DNA of 64,000 bases from a virus. The stretch is from IMG/VR virus record IMGVR_UViG_3300045988_175328, positions 163,220 through 227,219 of that record; one strand, 5' to 3'. This document shows positions 17,348 through 55,979 of the stretch, piece by piece (the stretch's first letter is position 1; the number at the start of each line of letters is the position of its first letter). A model generated the notes under the pieces. That model was given only the letters and a program-made list of their open reading frames with translations, did no database searches and had not been told where the DNA came from. The translations under genes were made by a program, and so were the position numbers.

Positions 17348-17375
17348 GAATTTGTTCAGAAAAGGAGAAATTATC

Positions 17376-20300
17376 ATGAACAAACAAAACATTCAAAACA
17401 ACAAAAATTTAAAAGCTGTCGTATTGGCAGCAGTAGATGCAGCAGTAGCTGCTGATGTGCGCGTGGTTAATACCACTGCGGCGGTAACAACCGCAGAAGC
17501 AGTAGTTACTGAAACTGCAGAAACACTTGCGCGCGCAGCGGTACAGTTTCAAACATTTATCAACAATTTTGTAGTAGAAGGAGGCGAGTATCGTAGCTTC
17601 ATGGGCATTCTATCTGATGTAGGATTTACACATCCAGATCTTGTTAAATGGGTGCGTAAACAAAAATGGACAGAAGCAATGTCTATTTGGAGAGAGGGTC
17701 AAGGATACACACGTAATTCTTTCCTTTGTGATGAAGACTGGAATACATTCCTCGAATTACGGGAAGCCCTCCTTCAAGCGCGCAATGCGTACAAAAACGC
17801 AAAACGTAAATTAGCTAGAAAAGAAGTCGCATTAAAAGCAGCAAAAAAAGAGGCAGCAAAAGCCTTATTAGCAGAGAAATCTGCAAACAAACAATGGAAA
17901 AAGGCGAGAAAGGATGCGAAAGAAGCAAGAGCTACTGAAGCAGCAGTAGCAGTCGAAGAGGCTCGATTAGAAAAAGCACGAAAACGTGCTGAAAAAGTGG
18001 GTCCGAAGGAACCGCCAAAACAAAGAGTGGCCGTAGCTGTTGCTGGTCTTGAGTCCATGTTAGAATGGATCGAATCTAGAAAGGTAGCTGTTACTAAAAC
18101 AGTTGTATTAGAAAATACAGCTAAATTAGTAACAGAAGCTAACGCAGCTGTTGAGTACGGTTATATGGATGCTAGAACTGGAGAATTTGTTTCTACAGAA
18201 GGAACAAAAGAGTTCTCTGGTGCTAGATTCAAAACTGGTGCTATCAACATTGCCGATAAAAATACTGCTAAAGCAACAGCAAAAGCCAACGCTACTGCTA
18301 ATGGTAAAGATTTAGATGGAGACGTCATAAATCGCTTCGTTAAACCTAGAAATATCCTTGATGGATTCAAACTTAAATTGCAAATGTTTGGATCTAAAGT
18401 ACGTGTGCGTAACGTACTTAAAGGTAATCGTAAAGGTTTTAAAGCTGTAATGGGACCAAAAGCACAAGTTGCTATTAAGTCCATTATCGTTGACGGTAGC
18501 GACGTAATGGCTAATGGTGAAGGTGTAAAAGCTATGGCAGTAGCAACTACATCCTCCATTAGCTATATTGTACGTACAGCAATTCGTCTTGGCGAAGAAA
18601 AAGGATGGGCTGAAGAGCTTGTTCTTAGAAATTCTTCTATTAAGACTGGCTATATGGATGGCAACATCGGTATCAACTCTCATAGAGAGATGACATCGAT
18701 GGAAGCCGATTTAACATATATGACTGCAGAAGTATCTGCTAATTATGTGTTGAATGGCTTAATCTCCATTCATATCGATAAAGAGGATGAGGAAGGCGTA
18801 TCCTTCACAAAGGGCATTCGTCAAGCAGAATTCATTATCGTTGATGGAATTAAATACATTCCGTTAATGGTTGAGTCTGTTGCGAAGACTCGTCTATACG
18901 ATACAGTATGGACAGCTGAGCATCTGGCTAACCAATGGCGCGAAGTGCTTCGTGTAGCGACAGGAGGAATCTCTGACAGTATTACTCTAATGAAAGAGTT
19001 AACTAAAGCTCTTAAATTGAGAAGCCGTTTGGGAATGGGGTTCTCTCCTAGCTATGAGTTCGAAATCGATCTTGCACGTTGGGGCGTTGTGTATCTTGAC
19101 GCTTCTATCGATGCAATCGACGGACAAGCTTACGGAAGCAGAGCTATGATGGAAGAGCTTCTTGAACTAGCTGGCGTGAACTCATGGCAAGTTCGCACGA
19201 ATACAGGTAAAGGACAACTCGTTCCAATGAAAAGAATGAAACGTCTACTTGCTGTATTGTGCGAACAATACGGTCTTGAACTCGTTTACGTTTCTGACGT
19301 TGACGAAGTTCAAGCAGCTATTGATGCAGCAAGAGCTGAAGGTAAAAGAGTAGCCGTTGTTGTTGGTAACGCCGAACATATTGGCATGATCGGCGATATG
19401 AATTTCTTTAAAGGAATTCCGACTATCAATGATGGTGGCATTGTTCGTCTAAGCGTCTTGAGAAATCTTGCACCAACAGGCAACGGCTCTCACTTCGCTT
19501 ACCAGGCAGCAGTGGGTGCTTTATGCTCTTACGAATGGGATAATAAAGACCGTTTCGTAAAAGCATTGGCTATGCAAGCCGTTGAAAAATTCACAGAAGC
19601 TTTCAATGGCTGTGCTGTTAATAAATCTGTAACTGATTTGTTTGCAGCATTAGTTGGAGTAAAAGGATTGGCTGGCGAAGCTGATATCATCAGCGAATTA
19701 GCCAACGGTGCATTTACTCCAGCTATGTATGGCATTAAAGAGCTTTCCTATGCGTTAAGAAACGAGCAACAAGTTGTTCGTGGTAGTGCATGGAAAGTTT
19801 CTTGCCCAGGCATGAAGGACGAGCTATTTAACGAAGCTATTCTTGAAGGAGCTGGCCTACTTGTTGTAGAAGGAATTGTTTCTAATAACAATCCTTTACT
19901 AAAACAAGGCGATTGGGTGATGGCATTGAGATACCCACATTCCAATGGGTTCTCTTTCGTTAAAATCAGACTTGTAACAGTATCTGAAGCTATCGAAAGA
20001 GTGAACAACTCTTCCGCGTTTGCGGCTCAAAAAGCTGTCATGATCGATGAGCTATTATCCCTTGGTGATAATAACATCATGGTAGACAGCAGCCGTGAGG
20101 TATTGGAAGCATTAGCTGGTATGGATTTTGATGGAGACGTGATCTCTGTCTTAAATCCAGAAGAAGCAGAGTTGCTTTTGCCAATGGATGAGCTACGTAC
20201 AGTCATTGCTCCGATCGTAACGAAAGCTCAAGAAAAAGAGCTTGTTGTTACAGGAAACTTTGAAGATACAATGCAACATCTTCAAAGCGAGATGGCAGCT

Positions 20301-22178
20301 AATGAAACTAAGTACGTTGGCGAAATCTCCAATGGAGTAATGAAAGCAACTGAGTTCTTGGGTCTTCCTAAAGATGAACAAAGAAAAATTGTGGCAGAAA
20401 TTGTCCGCAATGGAAATCTAAGCCACAATGGCTTATTGCCTACGTTCAACTGGGAGGAACAAGTAACTTGGGTTGAAGGAAAAGAAGGATTCGTACTTAG
20501 CGATGAGTCTACAACTCCTCAAGCTTTAGTTGCTATGAAAAATGCGTTCTTCGATAAAGTTGATGAACGAAACTACTCTGTAGAAAGTTTCATCAACTTC
20601 GCAGAATACGTTGTCATCATGTCTGGTCCAACGCAAGGATTCGTAATTGATGCGGCGAAAAAATTCTGTCCAATCGTAGACTTAGCAGAAGATATCTTCT
20701 CCAACTTAAGTCTTGGATGGAAAAGATTCGCTCCAACAATGGTGCTTACATGCAATGAGTATGGAGAGTTCTCCAAAGGTATGTCTTATAACTTTGGCGA
20801 AGAGAACTCTAGCATTACTCTTACAGTAGGCGCATGTATTCAGGTAGAAGCTTTCAAAGCGTTTGCGGTGGAAGCTTCTAAAGCTATCTTAAATGCATTT
20901 GCTGGAGAGGATGCATCTAAAGCTAACTGGAAAGCATTTGAAGACGCATTGAAAAAAGAGTCTTTAATGTCTTTGGTTGGTGGTAAGATGAACTCTGCTA
21001 GAAAGAACTGCAGAAACATTGCTGCTGGAGCTGCAGCTGCGATTAAAGTTATCGACAACCAAATCGCAGAAGCTTGCGGCGAAGAAAACATTCCTAGTAA
21101 AACAATGAAGGAATGGAGCGACGCTATCGGCTGCATGTTTGCTGCATCTGGTACAATCAATCCTCTTGGATTACGTGCTTATGCATCCAGCAAAACATTA
21201 CGTCCAGCAATCTTGAAAGCAATGCTTGACGCTGCTGAAGTAAAATCCATTCCTGTAGAAATTGGATTTACTTCTATGGCAAGAGTTGCTTTTGCGAAAG
21301 CGAATGTTGGAGAAAAAGTATTCTTCGAAAACTCTAAAGCTGCTGATGCTAACGGAGTAATTCTTCTACACTCTGGTTTAACAGGTTACTACAAAGTATC
21401 TGTTAAAACAGAAGAAGTAGAAGAAAACGGAGAAACAATCTCTGTAGAGACATACTTCGTAGAAGTGCCTGTGTCCGAAGTATTAGGCATCGAACCGATG
21501 AAAACAAATCGTTTCGTTGCTCACTTAGGATACGAAGGTGCCGATGCTGAAGTCGCTAGAAAGTTTAATGCTGAATTAACTAAGTTCGACTTCTGCGCGG
21601 AAGGTACGTTCGCTTTCTATGGCACGATGAAAGAACTAAACAATCTTATGATTGAAAAGTTTGGCGAAGGTGTCTTAAGAGACGTATTGGTATCAACAAT
21701 AACTGGGCTAAAAAACGGTGAAGACGTTTATAGCCAACAGTTTGTTGATTTCATCGCTCTTGCTAATGGTCACGCTACTGATCCGAAGTATGCAGCTGAT
21801 GACAAACATGACCGCGTATTCTTTGTTCGCAAAGATGAGAATGGTCGGGTTGTGGTTATGAGATCATTGCCTAACCAAGCAATGGCTTATGGCCATGAAG
21901 CGTTTAAGCTAAGAGGCATGTTCGCTGGAGAACTAAGATTAGTTAGTTACATCTTAGAAGGAAAAGCTAAGTCTGACAAAAAGGGCTATGTTAATAGCTA
22001 CTTATTGTTAGAGCACAAAACTTTAGCTCCTAAGCAAGAAATCAGTGCGTATATCAATGGTTTAATTACTAAATATGCGGCTGATTTCAAAGCAGCTGTC
22101 TTAAATAAAAAGTTCGAATTAGGTTGCCTTGGTAGCCTAGTTCAAACTGTATTATCTGATGAAGAAATCATTGGATAA
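17376..22178 (+). CDS. putative single-chain two-barrel (DPBB) RNA polymerase, YonO / crAss-gp66-like
   Basis: 1600 aa from ATG 17376 (AAAGGAG RBS; track ORF starts at TTG 17352); RTNTGKG (19194-19214), RYPH (19929-19940), DFDGD (20124-20138) in beta-then-beta-prime order. Confidence 0.6.
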   Translation: MNKQNIQNNKNLKAVVLAAVDAAVAADVRVVNTTAAVTTAEAVVTETAETLARAAVQFQTFINNFVVEGGEYRSFMGILSDVGFTHPDLVKWVRKQKWTEAMSIWREGQGYTRNSFLCDEDWNTFLELREALLQARNAYKNAKRKLARKEVALKAAKKEAAKALLAEKSANKQWKKARKDAKEARATEAAVAVEEARLEKARKRAEKVGPKEPPKQRVAVAVAGLESMLEWIESRKVAVTKTVVLENTAKLVTEANAAVEYGYMDARTGEFVSTEGTKEFSGARFKTGAINIADKNTAKATAKANATANGKDLDGDVINRFVKPRNILDGFKLKLQMFGSKVRVRNVLKGNRKGFKAVMGPKAQVAIKSIIVDGSDVMANGEGVKAMAVATTSSISYIVRTAIRLGEEKGWAEELVLRNSSIKTGYMDGNIGINSHREMTSMEADLTYMTAEVSANYVLNGLISIHIDKEDEEGVSFTKGIRQAEFIIVDGIKYIPLMVESVAKTRLYDTVWTAEHLANQWREVLRVATGGISDSITLMKELTKALKLRSRLGMGFSPSYEFEIDLARWGVVYLDASIDAIDGQAYGSRAMMEELLELAGVNSWQVRTNTGKGQLVPMKRMKRLLAVLCEQYGLELVYVSDVDEVQAAIDAARAEGKRVAVVVGNAEHIGMIGDMNFFKGIPTINDGGIVRLSVLRNLAPTGNGSHFAYQAAVGALCSYEWDNKDRFVKALAMQAVEKFTEAFNGCAVNKSVTDLFAALVGVKGLAGEADIISELANGAFTPAMYGIKELSYALRNEQQVVRGSAWKVSCPGMKDELFNEAILEGAGLLVVEGIVSNNNPLLKQGDWVMALRYPHSNGFSFVKIRLVTVSEAIERVNNSSAFAAQKAVMIDELLSLGDNNIMVDSSREVLEALAGMDFDGDVISVLNPEEAELLLPMDELRTVIAPIVTKAQEKELVVTGNFEDTMQHLQSEMAANETKYVGEISNGVMKATEFLGLPKDEQRKIVAEIVRNGNLSHNGLLPTFNWEEQVTWVEGKEGFVLSDESTTPQALVAMKNAFFDKVDERNYSVESFINFAEYVVIMSGPTQGFVIDAAKKFCPIVDLAEDIFSNLSLGWKRFAPTMVLTCNEYGEFSKGMSYNFGEENSSITLTVGACIQVEAFKAFAVEASKAILNAFAGEDASKANWKAFEDALKKESLMSLVGGKMNSARKNCRNIAAGAAAAIKVIDNQIAEACGEENIPSKTMKEWSDAIGCMFAASGTINPLGLRAYASSKTLRPAILKAMLDAAEVKSIPVEIGFTSMARVAFAKANVGEKVFFENSKAADANGVILLHSGLTGYYKVSVKTEEVEENGETISVETYFVEVPVSEVLGIEPMKTNRFVAHLGYEGADAEVARKFNAELTKFDFCAEGTFAFYGTMKELNNLMIEKFGEGVLRDVLVSTITGLKNGEDVYSQQFVDFIALANGHATDPKYAADDKHDRVFFVRKDENGRVVVMRSLPNQAMAYGHEAFKLRGMFAGELRLVSYILEGKAKSDKKGYVNSYLLLEHKTLAPKQEISAYINGLITKYAADFKAAVLNKKFELGCLGSLVQTVLSDEEIIG

Positions 22179-22422: not shown

Positions 22423-22450
22423 CTTAAGGGGCAAGCCCCTTAACAACCCC
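22423..22450 (+). repeat. H5 28-nt element cttaaggggcaagccccttaacaacccc, copy 1
   Basis: identical 28-mer also at 30995, 31998, 34950; variant at 38690. Confidence 0.9.
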
Positions 22451-25632: not shown

Positions 25633-26118
25633 ATGCAAACTTTGAAAATTAACAATCCTACAAGAAACTTAATTGAGATGACTTTAGAGGTCACAAAATT
25701 AAACGGCACTATTGAACAAGACGGCAATGCTGTTATCATTAATTTGCCAGAAGAACAGGTGTCTGCCTTTGTAGAATGGTACGGTGGTACTGGACTTAAG
25801 GAGACTGCCCTTGCCATCGCAAAGAAAGCAGGAGCATTAACTGCCAAAGCAGGAGACCTTACGAAAGTAGGGACTGTTGCTTTAGGAAAATTATCTTTCA
25901 AGACAGCCTTCGGTATGACTCGCAGAGCCATTGAGGCGACCGCGGGGATCACAGCTGCGGCCGTTAATGGCGCCAAAGAAGCTTATAGCGAAATGGTAAG
26001 TTCTGACGAGTTCAGAGCTGTTAAAGAATCTTTTAGTTCTGGACGCGGCAACGGCATTGAATTTGTCGAAATGACACCGGTTGTTCAAGCTGAAGTAGCA
26101 GAAGTTGTAGAAGGATAG
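25633..26118 (+). CDS. hypothetical protein, family E (paralogue of 47362..47877)
   Basis: 161 aa; ...LSFKTAFGMTRRAIEATAG...SDEFRAVKESF aligns with ...LAFKTTFGVGRRCVETVAG...SEEFNDLRNQF. Confidence 0.75.
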   Translation: MQTLKINNPTRNLIEMTLEVTKLNGTIEQDGNAVIINLPEEQVSAFVEWYGGTGLKETALAIAKKAGALTAKAGDLTKVGTVALGKLSFKTAFGMTRRAIEATAGITAAAVNGAKEAYSEMVSSDEFRAVKESFSSGRGNGIEFVEMTPVVQAEVAEVVEG

Positions 26119-26597: not shown

Positions 26598-27083
26598 ATG
26601 GAATTACAAGTAATTAAAGGTATGGTTATTGCGGCAAAATTAGCAAACAAATTTATGGGCGGCGCCTTGGAAAACAATCGTGCCGAGCTCCAAATCGGTG
26701 ACGTGAATTTAGTTATTTACAGCGCTGGCGGAAACGAGGTAGTAATTGCTCCAACTTCTATGGAGATGTGGTATGACCCAATCCATGTTGAAGGAACTTT
26801 GGAAACTGTCTTCGATACCATCGGAGAGATGCTAAAAGAAGCTGTCGAAGATGACGAAGACTCTCCATATCGTTACGAGTTTCCTAACTTAGAGCGCCTT
26901 GTCGAGTATATCGAGAAAGAAACAGGTGTCGTAGCTAACGAACATCCTAAATGCTATACTAAAGAATGGGACGGTATTATGGAATTCGACGAGTTCAAAA
27001 TCGTTTTCTTTGGGCCATACCATGGTACTGTATATGTGCCGGAAGATTACAAACTTAACTTTGTGTTGAAAGAGTTACCATAA
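26598..27083 (+). CDS. family D two-domain protein
   Basis: 161 aa; about half of residues identical by eye to 27363 product (…SPYR..F.NL..LVEYI.KETG...EHPK.Y...FGPYHGTVY.PEDY.LNFVL.ELP). Confidence 0.8.
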   Translation: MELQVIKGMVIAAKLANKFMGGALENNRAELQIGDVNLVIYSAGGNEVVIAPTSMEMWYDPIHVEGTLETVFDTIGEMLKEAVEDDEDSPYRYEFPNLERLVEYIEKETGVVANEHPKCYTKEWDGIMEFDEFKIVFFGPYHGTVYVPEDYKLNFVLKELP

Positions 27084-27094
27084 GGAGAAATATT

Positions 27095-27349
27095 ATGGAA
27101 TTAATTAAAGGATTATTCATTGGCGCCGCCTTACTAGGCAAACCAGTTCTCGTTAAGAAAGAACGGAAGGGCGTATACAATTTTATTATCGGGCCGATCA
27201 CAGTTTTTATCTATGATTGGGATGACAGTCGCACTATCGTCGGTATTGATGGACCAGAAGGTTCATACGAATCTTACAAAATCGACGGGGATGTGAGAAC
27301 AGTATTACACTACCTTGTAGATGTCAACAATAATATCGAGATTAAATAG
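27095..27349 (+). CDS. family D small protein (N-half type)
   Basis: 84 aa; MELIKGLFIGAALLGK... matches N-terminal half of 26598 product. Confidence 0.7.
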   Translation: MELIKGLFIGAALLGKPVLVKKERKGVYNFIIGPITVFIYDWDDSRTIVGIDGPEGSYESYKIDGDVRTVLHYLVDVNNNIEIK

Positions 27350-27362
27350 GAGTATTATTGCT

Positions 27363-27842
27363 ATGAAAATTATTGAAGGTTTAATTATGGCTGCAAGATT
27401 AGCAAATAAAGATATAACATATCGACTAGAAATTAATTATGCCGAATTTAAGATTGGAGATATTACTTTAGATATCTACATAAAAGATAAAAATATAGTT
27501 ATGATTACTCCGACTTGTGAGAACATGTGGGGACAGCCACTCTATATCGAAGGAACAGTCGGGTCTGTTTTCTCTGATATCTTAGACATGGTAAACGAAT
27601 CAGATGTCGATTCTGAGAATTCTCCGTATCGTCAGCGCTTTTCAAATTTAAAATCTTTGGTTGAGTACATCGTAAAAGAAACGGGAGCTATTGCAGGAGA
27701 ACATCCCAAACGTTATATCGAAGAGTGCGCTGACGTTATCGAATTCATTGAATTTAAAGTTGTATTATTCGGGCCATATCATGGAACAGTGTATGCTCCC
27801 GAAGATTACCAACTGAACTTTGTTTTAGACGAATTACCGTAA
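27363..27842 (+). CDS. family D two-domain protein
   Basis: 159 aa from ATG 27363 (track ORF starts at 27321). Confidence 0.8.
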   Translation: MKIIEGLIMAARLANKDITYRLEINYAEFKIGDITLDIYIKDKNIVMITPTCENMWGQPLYIEGTVGSVFSDILDMVNESDVDSENSPYRQRFSNLKSLVEYIVKETGAIAGEHPKRYIEECADVIEFIEFKVVLFGPYHGTVYAPEDYQLNFVLDELP

Positions 27843-28916: not shown

Positions 28917-28920
28917 TAAT

Positions 28921-28968
28921 AAGGGGTGCCCGAGCGAAGCGAGGGGTTAACGCCCCTTTTATTTTTTT
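28921..28968 (+). terminator. intrinsic terminator whose loop holds the first GA/GAA hairpin unit
   Basis: aaggggtg...cgcccctt stem then tttatttttttc. Confidence 0.7.
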
Positions 28969-29475
28969 CTAATAACCGTCTCCAACGGATCTAGCGAGCG
29001 AAGCGAGCGATTAACGAACCTACTATGTTTAAAGGGCGAGCGAATGCGAGCCCTTGTTAATGGACTTGTTTATATGAGGCGAGCGAAGCGAGCCGTTAAT
29101 GTACCTATCTTAAGTTTAGTAAGGGCGAGCGAAGCGAGCCCATTAAAGAACTAACTTAAAGATAGTAGCGATGCGAACGAAGTGAGCCGAGCTGTTGGTC
29201 CTTACTATAGTATAGTCGGCGAGTGAAACGAGCCGTTATAGTATAGTACTTATATATAGTATTAATAGAAAGAACCCGAAGGGTTATTATGTATAATAGT
29301 ATATATAAGCGAAAAAGGGAGCGTGAGCGACAGAAGGAGAGGCGGCGAACGAAGTGAGCCGTTGTTTGTTTCTTTGTTCCTGTATATATAAGAAAAGACA
29401 AGACAATTTGTTTTCGTCTTTTTGTTATATATAGTATAAAGAAAAAGAATAAATGGGCGCGAGCGGCAGCGAGCG
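28929..29475 (+). repeat. array of about 10 GGC-GA-GC-GAA-GC-GA-GCC hairpin units, each followed by GTTAA-like sequence
   Basis: units at 28929, 28993, 29034, 29078, 29123, 29173, 29217, 29318, 29341, 29455; outer stems covary (ccc/ggg vs ggc/gcc), inner gc/gc vs gt/ac. Confidence 0.8.
28974..28989 (+). repeat. 16-nt direct repeat aaccgtctccaacgga, left copy
   Basis: exact second copy at 43141-43156; both follow a terminator plus T-rich run. Confidence 0.85.
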
Positions 29476-29608
29476 ATTGTTTGTTCTTGTATACTATATA
29501 ATAGTATAAGAAAGACAAGAATTTTTTTGTTTGTCTTATAGTACTATATAGTATTAATAGTAAAAGAAATAAAAAAAAGAATGCCGGAAGTGGTCTTGAA
29601 GAGATTTA

Positions 29609-29636
29609 TGGTAATATAAGTCATGGTACATGACTT
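29609..29636 (+). promoter_or_regulatory. extended -10 (TGgTAATAT) followed by GTA-triloop hairpin, unit 1
   Basis: tggtaatat then aagtcatg-gta-catgactt then aac. Confidence 0.5.
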
Positions 29637-29786
29637 AACCCGTGGGAATTGTGGACGACCCTTCCTTCCGGTGCATGTACCTTTTTTATTTTTTGTCGCT
29701 GGCTCTTATTTAATTTTTGTTCTTGTTATATACTATATATATAATAATAAAAGAAATTAAAATAAGAATCGGCGCCGAGAAAATTT

Positions 29787-29813
29787 TGAGTAATATAAGT
29801 CTCGAAGAGACTT
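29787..29813 (+). promoter_or_regulatory. TGagTAATAT followed by GAA-triloop hairpin, unit 2
   Basis: aagtctc-gaa-gagactt then aac. Confidence 0.5.
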
Positions 29814-30036
29814 AACCGTGAGGTAGAATGGCCGGATGAATTGCTATTGTCTTATACTATATATATAGTAAGACACATAACATATCGCCGCCCGAACCCT
29901 TTAAAAAATTTTATTATTAAATTAATTTATATTTTTTAATTTTTTCGCCCCTGGTATTTTATTATAGTACTATATAGTAATAATATATAAACATAACAAC
30001 ATAATAATAATCGCCCGGGCTTCCTGAAAAAATTTT

Positions 30037-30062
30037 TGGTAATATAAGTCTCGAAGAGACTT
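30037..30062 (+). promoter_or_regulatory. extended -10 (TGgTAATAT) followed by GAA-triloop hairpin, unit 3
   Basis: identical hairpin aagtctc-gaa-gagactt. Confidence 0.5.
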
Positions 30063-30238
30063 AACTCCTTACCCCCGGTATCTTGATCCCGTAGGGGTCT
30101 TATTGTACTGTATCTACACTATAGTACTTACCGAACAAAATGTTTCTTATCTTACTTTTTATTCGGTTGTACATAGGGTTAGACACTTCGGTACATTAAA
30201 AAATTTTTTTTCTAAAAAAATGACTAACGTAACTTTTA

Positions 30239-30262
30239 TGAGTAATATAACTAACGTTAGTT
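30239..30262 (+). promoter_or_regulatory. TGagTAATAT followed by palindrome aactaacgttagtt, unit 4
   Basis: same TAATAT box, different but still palindromic downstream sequence. Confidence 0.45.
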
Positions 30263-30329
30263 TTCTTCGAAGAGAAGTAAGCTGAAACTGCAAGGCTGCC
30301 TGCTCTACGACTGCCCGTACGGTTTTTTA

Positions 30330-30930
30330 TAGAAGAATGGTAGTGTATTAATACTGTACTGTTAGTACTACTAGTACTGTACTACTCGACCCACACCTTT
30401 TGTGGCTGTGCCCTAAAAGGACGGGCCACTCTAATAGTTTTTTTACAGAAATTGTAGTTAATTTGTACTATTTCTAATGCAATATTAATAGTAAAACTGC
30501 ATTGGTTTTTCTGTACTTATAGATATACTAATTGCATTAGTTTTACAGATACAATTGTATTGGTTTTACAGTACCAACAGTTAACTAACACTACAGTACT
30601 TACAGTACTAATAAGACCGTACCAATGGTTTTAATGGTACTATAGTAAGATTGTACCATTGCCAATACAGCACTGCAAATAAAACCGTACTGTTTTGCAG
30701 TACTAAATGGTAATTAAATTGGTATGTTAATACAGTACTAACAAAACTGAACCAATGCTATTAATAGTACTACAGTTAAACTGTATCAACAAGACAGTAC
30801 CTATAGTACTATCAGAACTATAGTTAGATTGTATCAATAAGACAGAACCAATAGAACTATTGAAGCTATAGAAAGACTGTACTAATTAAACTGTACTAAT
30901 AGTATTAACAGTACATATAGTAAAGTAGTA
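30330..30930. repeat. GTAC-rich iteron field (possible origin or protein-binding array)
   Basis: I count 21 GTAC tetramers, mostly as CAGTAC(T/C) or CTGTACT, interleaved with about 10 copies of ACTGTAYCAATGGTTTTA-like repeats. Confidence 0.7.
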
Positions 30931-30994
30931 TTATATTAATAATTGTAATAGTAGTATTAATAATAAGAAGAATAAAGAAAAGAAAAATTTTTTT

Positions 30995-31022
30995 CTTAAG
31001 GGGCAAGCCCCTTAACAACCCC
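30995..31022 (+). repeat. H5 28-nt element, copy 2
   Basis: cttaaggggcaagccccttaacaacccc preceded by A5T7. Confidence 0.9.
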
Positions 31023-31025
31023 AAG

Positions 31026-31053
31026 TTGGTGAAGTTTAAAACAGCAGTAATAT
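31026..31053 (+). promoter_or_regulatory. candidate sigma-A-type promoter
   Basis: TTGGTG, 16-nt spacer, TAATAT. Confidence 0.4.
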
Positions 31054-31059
31054 AAAGAC

Positions 31060-31268
31060 TGTGTTTTTTGTATCACCTCCAATACCGAAACACACATCAT
31101 AATGTTTCCTCCTTTCTAAAATGATGAGAACTGAGAGCTCGGTTGAAACTTAGACCGAGCCTTGGTCTTATCGCGTTTACGCGTAATATACGAGTCCTGT
31201 AAGGACTCGATAACTGGAAACGATGTTAATTTATAGGAATATAGCCGCCCGTTTGGGCGGCTTTTTTT
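31060..31268 (+). ncRNA. candidate small RNA or structured leader (three hairpins + terminator)
   Basis: gctcggt/accgagc, cgcgt/acgcg, cgagtcc/ggactcg stems, then agccgccc-gttt-gggcggct T7 (31243-31268); no ORF. Confidence 0.4.
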
Positions 31269-31289
31269 GTTTTATTTGAGGTGTTATTT

Positions 31290-32018
31290 ATGGGATTTGA
31301 TGGAAACTATAAAGACGAAAAATGGATTGTTTCGATAAACCGAGAGAAGAATCTTATTATCGAAGAACGAGGTGAGTTGTATGAAGTTCAATGTATCGGA
31401 ATGAATGGCAATGTGTTAGTCGACAGAGTATTCTTTATGGGCCCGATTAGCGAAGAAGAAGTTTGGGAACTTATCTGGAGACTGAGATTGGAAGGTATAG
31501 ACGGAGAACTAACGATAGAAGAAAGTGGTTTGAACTATAAGGATTGGTTTGACGGGTTCGGTTTATACGAAAGCGATTTGTTATTTGGAGGATCCTGTTT
31601 ATGGAGAAGAACTGTCGGAGATGTTATTATCGATATCGGTATATCAGGTAACGGTAGAAATATTATGTACGAGAGAAAAGAAGATAGTTTCTTTGAAGTT
31701 TTAGTATATAGTGGTAACAGTAAAATTAGAAGTGAAATTAGTCAAAGTAAGAGCTTTGGTATTGGTAGTCCTTATAATAATAGTGATATTCTTAGTAATA
31801 GTATAGATAGTGTTATTATTGATAATAGTAATAGTAGTAATAATAGTGGAGATGGTAATAATGGTATATATAGTTATAACTATAGTGGATTACCTTGTTA
31901 TTATAGAGGATATATTAGTTACTATATAGTATTAGAGATTATAGATATGTTTATTAGAGAGTATGGAGGAGTTAAAGAGAAAAGAAAAATTTTTTTTCTT
32001 AAGGGGCAAGCCCCTTAA
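31290..32018 (+). CDS. family C two-domain paralogue with Ser/Asn low-complexity insert
   Basis: 242 aa from ATG 31290 (GAGGTG RBS); C-terminus runs into H5 copy 3. Confidence 0.7.
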   Translation: MGFDGNYKDEKWIVSINREKNLIIEERGELYEVQCIGMNGNVLVDRVFFMGPISEEEVWELIWRLRLEGIDGELTIEESGLNYKDWFDGFGLYESDLLFGGSCLWRRTVGDVIIDIGISGNGRNIMYERKEDSFFEVLVYSGNSKIRSEISQSKSFGIGSPYNNSDILSNSIDSVIIDNSNSSNNSGDGNNGIYSYNYSGLPCYYRGYISYYIVLEIIDMFIREYGGVKEKRKIFFLKGQAP

Positions 32019-43140: not shown

Positions 43141-43156
43141 AACCGTCTCCAACGGA
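43141..43156 (+). repeat. 16-nt direct repeat aaccgtctccaacgga, right copy
   Basis: exact match to 28974-28989. Confidence 0.85.
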
Positions 43157-44815: not shown

Positions 44816-44908
44816 TGTCCTGTAAAAGTTTTACTGAAAAGTTGTTTTTTAGTAAAAGTATGTTATAATAATCTCGTAATATAGTAATTAGAAAGCGAGG
44901 TGATAATA

Positions 44909-46159
44909 ATGTATGTAAATATGAAGCAACAGGTAAAACATCTAACAAAAGAAAAATACAATATCCTAAGAGAATTATGTAGGACTGCTAAGAATTTAAA
45001 AAATGAAGCAATTTATAATATTCGACAACATTATTTTCAAGAAAAACAATACTTGAGATATGAGTCGAATTATCATGAACTAAAGTATTCTGAAAATTAT
45101 AAGCTTTTAAATTCTAATATGGCACAACAAACTCTCAAGGAAGTTGATACAATGTTTAAATCATTCTTTGCTTTGATTAAAATGGCAAAGCAAGGAAAGT
45201 ACAGTTTTAAGCATATACGATTACCTAAGTATCTGCCTAAAAATGGATATTCAAATTTAATCATTGCACAATTTAAAATTAAAGATGGTATTTTAACTAT
45301 TCCAGTTTCTAATGCTTTTAAGGAAAAGCATGATATGAAAATTCAGATCAAAATTCCCAAAGCATTAGAAGGTAAAAAGATTAAACAGATTCAAATTATA
45401 CCTAAATTTAATGCTAGGTTCTTCGAGATTCAATATATATATGAAGTTCAAGAAGAAGATTTAAAATTAGATACCAACAATGCACTGGCTATTGATTTGG
45501 GAGTTAATAATTTGTGTACTTGCGTTACAAACGCTGGTAGATCTTTTATTATCGACGGAAGGAAGTTAAAATCTGTTAATCAATTCTTTAACAAGAATTA
45601 TGCTAAACTACAATCTATTAAAGACAAACAGCGTATCAAAAGACAGACGAAACAACAATATTTAATTTCTCTTAAGAGAAAGAATAGGGTTAACGATTAT
45701 ATCAATAAAACATGTCGATATATCATAAACTATTGCTTATCTAATAATATCGGAACTTTAGTTATTGGTTATAATCAGTCATTTCAATGTAAAACTAATT
45801 TAGGTAGGAGAAACAATCAAATTTTTACTCAATTGCCATTTGGTAAGATTCGAGAAAAATTAGAATATTCGTGCAAACGATATGGTATTAATTATATCTT
45901 ACAAGAAGAATCTTACACTTCTAAAGCTAGTTTTTTTGATAATGATGAGTTACCTATTTATAATGCTGACAATCCACAGGAATATGAGTTCAGTGGAAAG
46001 CGTGTTAAAAGAGGATTATACCAGACTAAAGATGGTTATCTTTTTAATGCAGATTGTAACGGCGCATTAAATATTCTTCGTAAAAGTAGCGTTGTAGACC
46101 TTAGTGTCTTATACAGTAGGGGCGATCTGGACACGCCTAAAAGAATAAGGATCTTTTAA
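44909..46159 (+). CDS. tnpB: TnpB-like RNA-guided endonuclease (IS200/IS605 OrfB family)
   Basis: 416 aa from ATG 44909 (GAGGTG RBS); RuvC triad contexts AIDLGVNN, LQEESYTSK, FNADCNGALNILR; no CxxC zinc-finger pairs. Confidence 0.9.
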   Translation: MYVNMKQQVKHLTKEKYNILRELCRTAKNLKNEAIYNIRQHYFQEKQYLRYESNYHELKYSENYKLLNSNMAQQTLKEVDTMFKSFFALIKMAKQGKYSFKHIRLPKYLPKNGYSNLIIAQFKIKDGILTIPVSNAFKEKHDMKIQIKIPKALEGKKIKQIQIIPKFNARFFEIQYIYEVQEEDLKLDTNNALAIDLGVNNLCTCVTNAGRSFIIDGRKLKSVNQFFNKNYAKLQSIKDKQRIKRQTKQQYLISLKRKNRVNDYINKTCRYIINYCLSNNIGTLVIGYNQSFQCKTNLGRRNNQIFTQLPFGKIREKLEYSCKRYGINYILQEESYTSKASFFDNDELPIYNADNPQEYEFSGKRVKRGLYQTKDGYLFNADCNGALNILRKSSVVDLSVLYSRGDLDTPKRIRIF

Positions 46160-46451: not shown

Positions 46452-46730
46452 TTATTTATTTAAAGCTTCTTTTAAAGCTTTAGCTGGTTTGAAAGCTACA
46501 GCTTTTTTTGCAGCGACTTTCATTTTTTCGCCAGTTTGTGGATTACGGCATTCGCGAGCTTTACGTTCACGAGATTCGAAAATGCCGAAACCATGTAAGC
46601 TAACTTTATCTCCTTTTACAAGAGATGTAGTTACTGTTGCTAATACATCTTCAACTAAAGCTGTAATAGCTTTTAAAGTTAATTCAGGATGTTTAGCAGC
46701 AACTGCTTTAATTAATTCTTGTTTATTCAT
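46452..46730 (-). CDS. hup: HU-family histone-like DNA-binding protein
   Basis: 92 aa; MNKQELIKAVA...GDKVSLHGFGIFESRERKARECRNPQTGEKMKVAAKKAVAFKPAKALKEAL aligns along its whole length with bacterial HU and SPO1 TF1. Confidence 0.9.
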   Translation of the reverse strand: MNKQELIKAVAAKHPELTLKAITALVEDVLATVTTSLVKGDKVSLHGFGIFESRERKARECRNPQTGEKMKVAAKKAVAFKPAKALKEALNK

Positions 46731-53944: not shown

Positions 53945-54396
53945 GTCTTGAAGAAGAATTAAATGCATACAAACTAGATCTTTTAGAGAATACTAAATAC
54001 TTCACGATAGAAGAATTAGCTGATTTGTATGAGAATGGTCAGCTAGATGTCCACTACAATGCAGACAAAACTGAACATTGGACTAATAAAAAACAAGATA
54101 AATTAATTAAAAATATTCTCTTAGGATTTCCGATTCCTACAATCTTCTTACAAGAGAAAGATGGAGAATATCTTGTTATAGATGGGTATAATAGACTTTT
54201 TACTATTTTAAGATTTTTGAATGTAATCGTAGCATGGAATGCACATGTATATAGATTCCCATACAAAGTTGAAATGTATCATCCAAAATTGCCATCTTTT
54301 AAAGAGACAACTTGGGATAATGGCGGCAAAAGACTTTCGAAAAAATTAAAAGAAAAGTTTTTAAATTATCGAATACCAGTATATTTTATAAAATAA
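53941..54396 (+). CDS. short DUF262-like (ParB/Srx-fold) protein without a nuclease domain
   Basis: 151 aa, ATGA overlap with HTH gene; KQDKLIKNILLGFPIPTIFLQEKDGEYLVIDGYNRLFTILRFL resembles the DUF262 DGQQR core. Confidence 0.5.
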   Translation: MSLEEELNAYKLDLLENTKYFTIEELADLYENGQLDVHYNADKTEHWTNKKQDKLIKNILLGFPIPTIFLQEKDGEYLVIDGYNRLFTILRFLNVIVAWNAHVYRFPYKVEMYHPKLPSFKETTWDNGGKRLSKKLKEKFLNYRIPVYFIK

Positions 54397-54423
54397 TTTT
54401 TGTTATTTTTCATTTATTTACTC

Positions 54424-54452
54424 TTGTATTTTTTGTAATATAGGAGTATAAT
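54424..54452 (+). promoter_or_regulatory. candidate sigma-A promoter at the start of the ORF-free region
   Basis: TTGTAT (54424-29), 17-nt spacer, TATAAT (54447-52). Confidence 0.55.
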
Positions 54453-54459
54453 ATTTGTT

Positions 54460-55733
54460 GAATAAATATTGTTTGTAGTTTTATATTATTTTTTTAATTT
54501 TTAGATGTCCCATACGTCTTAAAATCATATTTTATATAATAAAAGACAGTAGTTTAACTATTGTTTCTGTGATTTACAATGAAGAAATACCCCTATGTTT
54601 CTTCTCAATGCAAAACTACAATCCCATCTAAGTTAGGTTAGGATAACGTGACCTAACAGTTCGCTCCAAAATCCTTACACCAGGATGGCTTAGTCTCTAC
54701 AAGAGCTTGCGACTCTTGAATAGTGGACAGGCATGGGAGGGTGTCCTTGTACTTTAATTTTAATTTGTTTTTAGTATTTTAATACTGATTATGTAACAAA
54801 AACGATTTTTATAACAAAAAAACGAATCATTAACACTTTAAAGTACATGTAGGCTATATGTAAGACCTAAAGGGAATACCTGGCTACCTTCTGTAACCGT
54901 ATCTGAAAGCCGGAGAAAGCATTGCTACGGATTCGTCATGTAGTAGCGTTTGCAGTCCTTACCTGGACTTTAAATAGCGGGTGTTGCGAGCCCATGTAAG
55001 CGAAATCAGCAAAGGTACCCGTACTTAGTCTTCCTGAGTACGGATCCTACAAACGGGATGAAGGAACTACTGAATCCCTTATAGTATTACACTGTAATGG
55101 TAATTAGTAAGGTAAACATAAGAAATAGTGTCTCGCAAGCATGAGTTACCGAACGTTGCATTAATATAGCTATATTAGCTGTGAATTGGATCTTTCGCCA
55201 CAGTTTACACTGTAAATGTAGATCTGGAGCTAATATATAGGCGGCCTGTGTTAATGAGTAGTAGCTATGATTAAATGAGTTCGGGGGTATCAACTGGACG
55301 AGCTAATGAAGACGTAAGTCTTTGTTAGTATGTTGAGGTTGGCTTCCGTATGGACGATATCGGAGCCGGATTCCGTTCGATAGGCAAGGTGCGAGAGATC
55401 GTGAACCCTACCTAGCATGTAGAAGTAGAACCTAGACGCATGGTAAGAACGGTTATTATTTTTCTAGCTGTTGTATCTGAATATGTCGTAAGACATTGGA
55501 AGGATATATGCAAAAGCAGTACAGTTGTTAAATAAAACTGGAAGTAGAGATCTAATAAAGTATAGGAAGACGCCTTAGGGCAAAACTTAATTTTTTAATC
55601 CAGTAGGATTAGTCTGCCCAAAAGGAGTTAACTTACCCCCGTACGAAGAATATAAGCTGTTATCTTAAGATAGCTGGCGTAAACTGATTAGATCGGTTTG
55701 TCAGAACTGTCTTAGGATAACAGCTATTTTTTT
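54460..55733 (+). ncRNA. candidate large structured non-coding RNA (one or two transcripts; 5' end uncertain)
   Basis: no + strand ORF of 60 aa or more between 54397 and 55979; many hairpins incl. GNRA loops at 55309-22 (GTAA), 55392-401 (GAGA), 55483-96 (GTAA); terminator at 3' end. Confidence 0.55.
55655..55733 (+). terminator. long-stem intrinsic terminator closing the ORF-free region
   Basis: agctgttatcttaaga (55655-70) pairs with tcttaggataacagct (55710-25), then T7. Confidence 0.7.
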
Positions 55734-55979
55734 ATACTGAAATTGATACTGTAGAACTGATACTTATTATCTGACTTAACTCTAATGGTAACTGCGTCCT
55801 ATTTATATTTAATAAGGCTTTAGATAGGGGGCGTGAAAATAGAGCTGAATCTTTATCAAAAGCAGAGTAATCTCTGCGCGTTGATAATCAGTTAGTATCG
55901 GTAATACAGAATTAAGATAGAATTAGTGCTATGTTTGTAGCTTCGGTAATTTGCAGATACAGAAAGGACAGGACGAGAA

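What the first reader, a model, noticed from the sequence alone, without database searches (positions are those of the whole stretch)
30330..30930. GTAC-saturated iteron field, preceded by a field of AT-rich palindromes (29200-30140)
I count 21 GTAC tetramers in about 600 nt, mostly as CAGTAC(T/C) or CTGTACT, in a genome where this 4-mer should be rare. They are interleaved with about ten copies of an ACTGTAYCAATGGTTTTA-like repeat.
Just upstream lie about eleven imperfect palindromes of the TATAGTACTATATAGTA type.
Iterons plus AT-rich palindromic, easily melted DNA is the classical organisation of a replication origin. Alternatives are a partition or packaging site, or a decoy cluster for a GTAC-recognising host enzyme.
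Together with the hairpin array, this gives about 2.4 kb (28917-31280) with no credible ORF in an otherwise tightly packed genome.
Basis: partly seen in the sequence, partly recalled or inferred. Interest (0 to 1): 0.6.

Follow-up and report, generated by a model that had tools for sequence, protein, structure and literature searches.

The report
Unique GTAC-rich repeat array, jumbo phage
A 227-kb uncultured phage has, in its largest gene-free region, one conserved array of about twenty 24-base direct repeats rich in GTAC; it looks like a docking site for a DNA-binding protein, possibly a replication origin, but sequence alone cannot show that.

Summary
There are exactly 21 GTAC in 30330-30930, against 1.1 expected. 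No other 600-nt window of the 227-kb genome has more than 6.

The tetramers belong to about 20 head-to-tail units of 23-25 nt, which pair into a 48-nt super-unit. All units point the same way, and the unit occurs nowhere else in the genome. The 100 nt at the array's 3' end are the third least stable duplex of the genome.

The array sits at the same place in four diverged relatives, with 10-22 GTAC each. It is 100% identical in four further assemblies. It evolves more slowly than synonymous sites but faster than the neighbouring promoter modules, and it gains and loses whole units. Two distant relatives have a different repeat at the same position.

GTAC is not rare genome-wide (observed/expected 0.93). 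GTAC itself is no better conserved than the rest of the unit. The upstream "palindromes" behave as strand-specific hairpins inside a cluster of gene-less promoters.

An origin remains the leading guess at about 0.3. Nothing ties the array to replication: there is no initiator, no DnaA box and no skew step, and the replication genes lie about 60 kb away. Read mapping was unavailable.

The scan had already noted this same stretch from another window, and similar arrays on other phage DNA.

The parts
28917..31280 (.). Gene-free control region, the largest non-coding gap of the 227-kb genome. It is conserved in length and layout in relatives.
   Evidence: ORF lists. The same gap occurs in L118 (19886-22052), L116 (12374-14587), L120 (13021-15254) and L121 (21822-24171).
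29249..29309 (+). Long imperfect AT-rich palindrome around a GAACCCGAAGGGTT hairpin.
   Evidence: I8. RNA fold is -19.1 kcal/mol on + against -17.6 on -.
29377..29437 (+). Long imperfect AT-rich palindrome.
   Evidence: I8. Fold is -23.4 on + against -13.8 on -, so it is strand-specific.
29491..29554 (+). Palindrome with 31-nt arms, containing TATAGTACTATATAGTA.
   Evidence: z -6.4. In L120 and L121 its tip is replaced by an unrelated perfect hairpin (A2 columns about 690-740).
29709..29761 (+). AT-rich palindrome upstream of promoter box P2.
   Evidence: I2, I3. Fold is -11.1 on + against -5.6 on -.
29611..29618 (+). GTAATATA promoter-like box P1. The other boxes are P2 at 29790, P3 at 30039, P4 at 30242, P5 at 31047 and P6 at 31183. 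Each is followed by a hairpin and none by an ORF.
   Evidence: GTAATATA occurs 20 times on + and 0 times on - in the genome, with 6 copies in the gap. Several others lie 20-35 nt before start codons. The boxes are invariant in five genomes.
30346..30385 (+). Proximal GTAC cluster: 4 GTAC in a quasi-palindrome. It is dispensable, because L116 lacks most of it.
   Evidence: (I22).
30387..30446 (+). Conserved GC-rich hairpin followed by CTCTAATAG and a run of seven T. It separates the proximal cluster from the main array.
   Evidence: Nearly invariant in five genomes, with one compensated pair.
30447..30935 (+). Main array: about 18 of the 20 tandem 23-25-nt units (consensus ACTGTACTAATAGTACTGTACCAATA), forming a 48-nt super-unit. 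It includes a window-specific extra stretch of about 130 nt near 30616-30745.
   Evidence: At 15 bits or more there are 15 + strand hits and 1 - strand hit, all in the field and none elsewhere in 227 kb. Unit-scale insertions and deletions among relatives.
30894..30993 (.). Very AT-rich tail of the array (TAGTATTA-type repeats), resembling a DNA unwinding element (DUE).
   Evidence: Third least stable 100-nt duplex of the genome: -99.3 kcal/mol against a mean of -121.9, sd 6.9.
30998..31013 (+). AAGGGGCAAGCCCCTT hairpin, which closes the array. The same element recurs at 22426, 32001 and 34953.
   Evidence: Invariant in five genomes.

Best explanation
The GTAC field is a single-copy, cis-acting array of about 20 directly repeated 23-25-nt units (iterons). 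Each unit carries two ACWGTACYAA-type cores, and a very easily melted AT-rich tail follows the array. I infer that a sequence-specific DNA-binding protein, phage or host, loads onto the many redundant sites and builds one large nucleoprotein complex. This would happen at the point where the early-type gene block begins.

The most likely use of that complex is to open the adjoining AT-rich tail and start DNA replication. The six gene-less promoters around it could supply activating or priming transcripts, as at the T7 primary origin and at T4 oriF and oriG.

Shown here: the array, its uniqueness, its orientation, its conservation, its unit turnover and the unstable flank. Inferred: protein binding. 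Guessed by analogy: origin function.
For: - The enrichment is 18.5-fold and unique in the genome.
- There are 20 oriented units spaced 23 or 25 nt apart, and no hit of 15 bits or more elsewhere in 227 kb.
- The field keeps its position in four relatives, and GTAC is dense in all of them (10-22 sites).
- Field identity is about 0.79-0.81, against 0.58-0.73 at third codon positions of flanking genes. Whole units are gained and lost, as expected when many redundant sites are under collective selection.
- The field is 100% identical in four further assemblies.
- Distant relatives G001 and G002 keep the same layout but have a different repeat at the equivalent position: the 14-mer GATGTATTTGGTCC in 2-4 copies plus AT-rich TAGTATTA repeats. 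This is the pattern seen where repeats co-evolve with their binder.
- The abutting 100 nt is the third least stable duplex of the genome.
Against: - No initiator-like, HTH or Rep domain was found in the ten flanking ORFs.
- The primase, helicase and DnaE genes lie about 60 kb away, and other gene-free blocks sit beside them.
- There is no DnaA box in the gap.
- Third-codon GC and AT skews show no step anywhere.
- The GTAC cores are no better conserved than the rest of the unit (0.81 against 0.79, permutation p = 0.42).
- No helical phasing is shared among relatives. The peak period is 11.75 in the window and 16.25 in L116 and L120, which are harmonics of the 48-nt unit.
- Twenty units is more than typical origins carry.
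- The field is probably transcribed, because the P4 transcript lacks a convincing terminator. An RNA role therefore cannot be excluded.
- Even for T4 oriE, the link between iterons and origin activity was never established.
Confidence: 0.3

Rival explanations
1. The array works as RNA. It would be the body of a long non-coding transcript of about 0.7 kb started at promoter box P4 (30242). Its roughly 20 repeated ACUGUACUAA-type motifs would titrate an RNA-binding protein or a small RNA, as in a CsrB-type sponge.
For: - Every gene is on the + strand, and six conserved gene-less promoters sit in the gap.
- The P4 transcript has no convincing terminator (z +0.57).
- The motif is strongly strand-biased (15 against 1).
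- The neighbouring palindromes behave as + strand hairpins.
- In crAss-like phage phi14:2, which has the same kind of RNA polymerase, two long intergenic regions beside early genes are transcribed above most genes (bioRxiv 10.1101/2020.03.07.982082).
Against: - The short motif is not better conserved than its spacers, unlike the motifs of sponge RNAs.
- No covariation supports a fold.
- Both strands fold better than shuffles simply because the core is palindromic.
- A conserved hairpin plus a run of seven T (30387-30446) lies between P4 and the main array.
- The phi14:2 gene-free region has no comparable array.
Confidence: 0.2
2. The array marks or controls a physical end of the packaged genome. 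It could be a terminal-repeat boundary, a packaging signal, or an injection-pause region like the T5 injection-stop repeat region. It would lie just ahead of the first genes to enter the cell.
For: - The layout resembles phage left ends: gene-less promoters, then a repeat array, then about 30 small AT-rich early-type genes, all in one orientation.
- Unchecked notes of this scan describe tandem host-repressor-site arrays beside gene-less promoters at the ends of giant coliphages.
- The 119-nt end overlap of the record only shows a circular assembly, so the true ends are unknown.
Against: - The terminase gene is about 140 kb away.
- The 16-mer at 28974 and 43141 that brackets the block is a small hairpin. 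Its two copies do not co-vary in a relative, so it gives no evidence of a repeat boundary.
- Contig breaks of relatives near here are explained by repeats and strain variation.
Confidence: 0.15
3. The array is an architectural or transcription-switch platform. A small abundant phage protein, such as the phage's own HU-family protein, or a p6- or TF1-like protein, would polymerise along it and over the nearby TAGTAC elements. This would shut the clustered early promoters or organise the genome.
For: - TAGTACTA-type words are shared by the array and by the elements 65-80 nt upstream of promoters P1-P3.
- The phage encodes an HU-family protein (PF00216, 107.6 bits) 15 kb downstream.
- phi29 p6 binds as dimers every 24 bp and serves both replication initiation and the early-late switch (PMC10899789).
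Against: - A 12-bp phasing appears only in the window and in L121. L116 and L120 peak at 16.25.
- HU proteins usually lack sequence specificity.
- Nothing links the HU gene to the array.
Confidence: 0.15
4. The array is a polar replication-fork barrier of the Bacillus RTP/Ter type, or a decoy or methylation-controlled site for a GTAC-specific enzyme.
For: - The core GTACYAA(A)T also occurs in the B. subtilis Ter consensus KMACTAANWNNWCTATGTACYAAATNTTC (PMC3317982).
- All units share one orientation.
Against: - No field site matches the full Ter consensus within 6 mismatches, or its B core within 2.
- The phage has no RTP, N6_N4 methyltransferase or D12 methyltransferase gene.
- GTAC is not avoided elsewhere in the genome.
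Confidence: 0.04
5. The array is a functionless decaying tandem duplication (a satellite).
For: Whole units are gained and lost, and the cores are not specially conserved.
Against: - It holds its position in five diverged genomes and is more conserved than synonymous sites.
- An analogous array with another motif occurs in distant relatives.
- Five assemblies show no variation.
Confidence: 0.08

Closest known systems
Iteron-type origins of plasmids and phages (lambda ori, P1 oriR, R6K gamma), and the 12-nt direct-repeat cluster at T4 oriE
   Same: Multiple same-orientation direct repeats of about 20 nt spaced about two helical turns apart, next to an AT-rich, easily melted segment. The locus is unique in the genome.
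   Different: There are about 20 units rather than 3-9. No initiator gene lies beside or around the array. There are no DnaA boxes. The array is far from the replication genes. Even for T4 oriE the role of the repeats was never shown (PMC3016281).
T7 primary origin (tandem promoters phi1.1A and phi1.1B followed by an AT-rich stretch, downstream of the RNA polymerase gene) and the T4 oriF and oriG R-loop origins
   Same: Clustered promoters with no gene to serve, an AT-rich segment, a position downstream of the phage RNA polymerase gene, and all genes co-oriented (comparison from my own knowledge).
   Different: Those origins have no large repeat array. Promoter use here is unproven.
phi29 protein p6 nucleoprotein complex
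   Same: A repeat unit of about 24 bp with two sub-sites. The complex has a dual role in replication initiation and the early-late switch (PMC10899789).
   Different: p6 reads bendability, not a sequence motif, and sits at the genome ends. The 12-bp phasing is not shared by the relatives here. No p6 homologue was sought.
Highly transcribed long intergenic regions of crAss-like phage phi14:2 (g004-g006)
   Same: A gene-free block of 1.7-2.4 kb beside early genes in a phage that encodes a two-barrel, gp66-type RNA polymerase. The block is transcribed rightward.
   Different: The phi14:2 block has no comparable tandem array. Transcription of the array here has not been measured.
T5 injection-stop repeat region, and tandem host-repressor-site arrays noted by this scan at the ends of giant coliphages
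   Same: A non-coding hub with gene-less promoters and about 20 tandem short sites ahead of early genes.
   Different: The genome ends here are unknown. No host regulator motif could be matched: FapR, DnaA and RTP were all tested and were negative.

Membership tests
Iteron-type replication origin | Three or more direct repeats of about 17-24 bp in one orientation | tested here: met
   20 units spaced 23 or 25 nt apart; 15 + strand hits against 1 - strand hit at 15 bits or more.
Iteron-type replication origin | Adjacent AT-rich DNA unwinding element | tested here: met
   30894-30993 is the third least stable 100-nt duplex of the genome.
Iteron-type replication origin | Cognate initiator gene next to or around the repeats | tested here: not met
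   Ten flanking ORFs have no Pfam match. Two of them (26598-27083 and 31281-32018), plus 25633-26118 and 27321-27842, have no PHROG match. The replication genes lie about 60 kb away. A novel initiator cannot be excluded.
Iteron-type replication origin | Host DnaA boxes | tested here: not met
   No TTATCCACA with one mismatch or fewer occurs in 28917-31280, and the window total equals chance.
Iteron-type replication origin | Replication starts here | not testable with these tools
   Third-codon skew is uninformative.
B. subtilis RTP/Ter fork barrier | Match to the Ter consensus KMACTAANWNNWCTATGTACYAAATNTTC | tested here: not met
   No field site matches within 6 mismatches, and the B core does not match within 2 mismatches.
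B. subtilis RTP/Ter fork barrier | RTP protein | tested here: not met
   PF02334 is absent from the phage at E <= 1. The host is unknown.
Partition centromere (parS, parC, sopC, tubC) | Tandem binding repeats | tested here: met
Partition centromere (parS, parC, sopC, tubC) | Partner ParB, ParA or TubZ genes | tested here: not met
   PF02195, PF01656 and PF00091 are absent. ParM and ParR were not tested.
Methylation-gated pac site (P1 type) | Cluster of short methylatable palindromes plus a cognate methyltransferase, near the terminase gene | tested here: not met
   The cluster is present, but there is no N6_N4 or D12 methyltransferase, and the terminase gene is about 140 kb away.
Sponge-type non-coding RNA (CsrB-like) | Short motif conserved above its spacers, in a transcribed RNA | tested here: inconclusive
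   Motif columns score 0.81 against 0.79 for the rest, p = 0.42. A promoter lies upstream, but transcription is unmeasured.
phi29 p6-type array | Regular 12/24-bp phasing | tested here: inconclusive
   The peak is at 11.75 in the window but at 16.25 in L116 and L120.

The most novel reading that the evidence does not exclude
The array is a decoy or docking platform of about 20 sites for a host DNA-binding protein. It would be placed at the leading end of a genome whose first transcription is done by an ejected crAss-gp66-type RNA polymerase. It would then control DNA entry, or capture a host factor, in the first minutes of infection. This would parallel the tandem host-repressor-site arrays that this scan noted at the ends of giant coliphages.
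Probability: 0.1. Interest if true: 0.7.

Novelty: new member of a known kind. Interest (0 to 1): 0.35.

Why it matters
Replication origins and other unique cis-acting sites are essentially unmapped in jumbo phages. They are wholly unknown in this uncultured family of about 225 kb, which carries a two-barrel RNA polymerase.

This array is the single most distinctive non-coding landmark of the genome. It is conserved yet evolves by unit turnover, and it changes motif between sub-families. That makes it a concrete place to look for an origin, a genome end or a new DNA-binding protein once a host is found.

The work also shows that the surrounding 2.4 kb is a cluster of gene-less promoters and strand-specific hairpins, not merely meltable DNA.

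Tried and rejected
- RTP/Ter similarity. I recalled it from memory and confirmed the consensus in PMC3317982. The field does not match, and there is no RTP gene.
- FapR operator TTAGTACCWGATACTAA: no site in the field.
- DnaA boxes: none in the gap.
- Methylation-gated site or GTAC decoy: no N6_N4 or D12 methyltransferase, and GTAC is not depleted genome-wide.
- Partition site: no ParB, ParA or tubulin.
- Origin mapping by skew: third-codon GC and AT skews are noisy around zero with no step. The overall positive skew comes from codon positions 1 and 2.
- Terminal-repeat or mobile-block boundary from the 16-mer at 28974 and 43141: it is a small hairpin. In L130 the right copy has compensatory changes while the left copy is unchanged.
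- Contig ends of two relatives upstream of the RNA polymerase gene: one lies inside a gene that another assembly reads through, in a strain-variable region. This is not evidence of termini.
- 10.5- or 12-bp phasing: not shared among relatives.
- Homology searches. There is no match in GenBank phages (near and distant modes) or in PLSDB plasmids. Conserved flank patterns found nothing in IMG/VR or JGI metagenomes. Rfam and tRNA scans of the window were empty.

Full report
**Setting.** The window is the last 64 kb of a 227,219-bp IMG/VR phage record (G000:C1:163220-227219). The record's 119-nt end overlap only shows that the assembly closed on itself. Almost all genes lie on the + strand. No cultured phage is close: the DnaE-type polymerase finds at best 28-38% identity in GenBank phages. 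Upstream of the finding lie tail genes and a 1608-aa protein carrying a DFDGD motif (17352-22178). Earlier notes of this scan read that protein as a two-barrel, crAss-gp66/YonO-type RNA polymerase. About twenty small genes follow it. Then comes the gene-free stretch 28917-31280, then about thirty small AT-rich paralogous genes.

**The observation.**
- The genome has 429 GTAC in total. The rate outside the field predicts 1.08 sites, giving a Poisson P of 4e-20.
- Shuffles of the field that keep its dinucleotides give a mean of 7.1 and never more than 17 in 2000.
- The next densest 600-nt window of the genome has 6.
- GTAC is the most enriched tetramer of the field, at 18.5-fold.
- The gap is the largest non-coding stretch of the genome, at 2,364 nt.
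- The whole gap, array included, is 100% identical in four further independent assemblies (L137-L140). It is therefore not an assembly artefact and is stable over short time.

**Anatomy of the array.**
- Tandem Repeats Finder (TRF) reports periods of 23 and 48. Autocorrelation peaks at lags 14, 23, 34 and 48.
- A position weight matrix (PWM) grown from the field finds 20 sites. Successive starts are mostly 23 or 25 nt apart, so pairs of units make the 48-nt super-unit.
- The consensus is ACTGTACTAATAGTACTGTACCAATA, with two ACWGTACYAA-type cores 14 nt apart.
- At 15 bits or more there are 15 hits on the + strand, 1 on the - strand, and none anywhere else in 227 kb. The simple word AYWGTACTA has 9 of its 10 + strand copies in the gap.
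- The flanks of GTAC are asymmetric: A-Y-W on the left and T-A-W on the right. The units are therefore direct repeats, not dyads.
- The field falls into four parts:
  - a proximal cluster of four GTAC (30346-30385);
  - a conserved GC-rich hairpin followed by CTCTAATAG and a run of seven T (30387-30446);
  - the main array (30447-30935);
  - a very AT-rich tail. The segment 30894-30993 is the third least stable 100-nt duplex of the genome, and 29911-30010 is the fourth.

**Relatives.** A protein search with the polymerase-like protein led to contigs of 148-225 kb from other samples. These carry the same gene order and the same gene-free gap. In a five-genome alignment (A2) the parts of the gap differ in conservation:

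| Part | Mean pairwise identity |
|---|---|
| GTAATATA boxes, their hairpins and 30985-31280 | 0.90-0.98 |
| The array, where alignable | 0.76-0.81 |
| Third codon positions of flanking genes | 0.58-0.73 |

The array therefore evolves more slowly than neutral sites but is far less fixed than its neighbours.
- The array changes by whole units. The window has about 130 extra nt, L118 lacks about 50, and L116 lacks most of the proximal cluster.
- GTAC density is high in every relative: 21, 22, 13, 12 and 10 sites in 428-632 nt.
- Individual GTACs turn over to GTGC, GTAT, ATAC, GAAC and GTTC. The four core columns are no better conserved than the rest of the unit: 0.81 against 0.79, permutation p = 0.42. 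Selection, if any, acts on the array or the whole unit, not on the tetramer.
- Two distant relatives in IMG/VR (G001 and G002, 229 kb; a polymerase match at 25% identity was found only in G001) keep the same layout: hairpin array, then promoter-like modules, then a repeat field, then small genes. Their gaps are 3.3-3.5 kb, and their field has almost no GTAC. Instead it holds 2 or 4 perfect tandem copies of a 14-mer (ATGTATTTGGTCAT or GATGTATTTGGTCC), followed by AT-rich TATATAGTCATATAT and TAGTATTA repeats.
- A conserved position with a changed motif is what one sees where a repeat co-evolves with its binding partner.

**The upstream "palindromes".** About ten palindromic centres exist, but they are not merely meltable DNA.
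- Four of five fold better on the + strand than on the - strand as single strands, for example -23.4 against -13.8 kcal/mol.
- In L120 and L121 the tip of the 29491-29554 palindrome is replaced by an unrelated, perfectly self-complementary insert. Structure is kept while sequence is not.
- They lie among six GTAATATA boxes (29611, 29790, 30039, 30242, 31047, 31183). GTAATATA occurs 20 times on the + strand and never on the - strand, and several copies elsewhere sit 20-35 nt before start codons. I read them as promoters.
- In the gap none of these boxes serves an ORF, and each is followed by a hairpin. The P1, P5 and P6 transcripts fold far better than shuffles.
- The gap is therefore a cluster of gene-less promoters and small structured transcripts, and the array is embedded in it.
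- TAGTACTA-type words are shared by the array and by the elements 65-80 nt upstream of P1-P3.

**Tests of function.**
- Origin. The direct repeats and the unstable flank fit an origin, but nothing else does. There are no DnaA boxes. The ten flanking ORFs have no domain hits. Third-codon skews show no step. The primase, helicase and DnaE genes lie about 60 kb away, next to other gene-free blocks that earlier notes considered.
- Partition. No ParB, ParA or tubulin.
- Methylation gate or enzyme decoy. No N6_N4 or D12 methyltransferase, and 408 GTAC sites elsewhere occur at the expected frequency.
- Fork barrier. The core GTACYAA(A)T recalled the B. subtilis Ter consensus, which I confirmed in PMC3317982. 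The field does not match that consensus, and there is no RTP gene.
- FapR operator. Absent.
- Genome end. The 16-mer AACCGTCTCCAACGGA occurs only at 28974 and 43141 and brackets the AT-rich block. It is a small hairpin. In L130 its right copy carries compensatory changes while the left copy is unchanged. It is not evidence of a repeat boundary.
- RNA role. The P4 transcript lacks a convincing terminator, so the array is probably transcribed. Both strands fold better than shuffles, as any palindrome-rich sequence would, and there is no covariation.
- crAss-like precedent. In phi14:2, long intergenic regions beside early genes are among the most transcribed parts of the genome. However, the 1.7-kb gene-free block of phi14:2 has no comparable array.
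- Phasing. The peak period is 11.75 in the window and 16.25 in L116 and L120. These are harmonics of the 48-nt unit, not a shared helical phase. A phi29 p6-like wrap (PMC10899789) is therefore not specifically supported.
- Candidate binder. An HU-family gene lies on the - strand at 46455-46730. It is a possible binder, but nothing links it to the array.

**Verdict.** The array is real, unique, oriented, conserved and unit-variable, and it has no homologue in GenBank phages or PLSDB plasmids. Its properties fit a platform of many redundant binding sites on double-stranded DNA. An origin of the iteron or transcription-activated kind is the best single guess, at about 0.3. It is followed by a non-coding RNA role (0.2), a genome-end or entry function (0.15) and an architectural or switch platform (0.15). 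The T4 oriE repeats are a caution: their role was never established (PMC3016281).

The decisive data are read starts and depth, RNA 5' ends and protein binding. 

Noticed in passing
window 31047-31165 (+): A transcript from a GTAATATA box displays GUAUCACCUCC (31070) and UUUCCUCCUUUCUA (31105) in two predicted loops. From my own knowledge, both strings resemble the 3' end of Firmicute 16S rRNA, the anti-Shine-Dalgarno region. The stretch is invariant in five genomes and its fold z-score is -4.65. It could be a small RNA that mimics the anti-SD sequence or binds ribosome-binding sites.
   Followed up: partly
window 46455-46730 (-), with 44900-46159 (+): An HU-family gene (PF00216, 107.6 bits) is the only minus-strand gene I saw annotated in this region. 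In the window a TnpB-like ORF of 419 aa lies just upstream of it. Relatives L130 and L132 lack that ORF at this spot.
   Followed up: partly
window 28974-28989 and 43141-43156 (+): The 16-mer AACCGTCTCCAACGGA occurs only twice in the genome, each time just after a terminator and a T-run, and the two copies bracket the AT-rich early-type block. It is a small hairpin. In L130 the right copy reads AACCGCCTCCGGCGGA (compensatory changes) while the left copy is unchanged.
   Followed up: yes
window 17352-22178, compared with L120 and L121: The RNA-polymerase-like gene is replaced by an allele only 35% identical in two relatives, while the downstream genes and the gap stay 80-98% identical. This is a mosaic swap of a core enzyme.
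   Followed up: no
window 54397-55979: The second largest gene-free gap of the genome (1,583 nt). It begins at two of the most AT-rich 60-nt windows of the genome (starting at 54381 and 54447) and contains a GTAATATA box at 54435.
   Followed up: no
window 29491-29554; L120 and L121 (A2 columns about 690-740): The tip of a palindrome with 31-nt arms is replaced in two relatives by an unrelated perfect inverted repeat (GGCTGTTTAATCCGTGCTAA...TTAGCACTGATTAAACAGTC). The hairpin is kept while the sequence is not.
   Followed up: partly
L128 4135-4190 (G002); L127 4305-4332 (G001): Distant relatives carry 4 and 2 perfect tandem copies of a 14-mer (GATGTATTTGGTCC and ATGTATTTGGTCAT) at the position equivalent to the GTAC array. 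TGTATTTGGT resembles the window's TGTATTGGTTT units at 30495-30575.
   Followed up: partly
window 22426, 30998, 32001, 34953: The identical hairpin AAGGGGCAAGCCCCTT recurs at block boundaries, and several short public contigs end at it. It closes the GTAC array on its 3' side.
   Followed up: no
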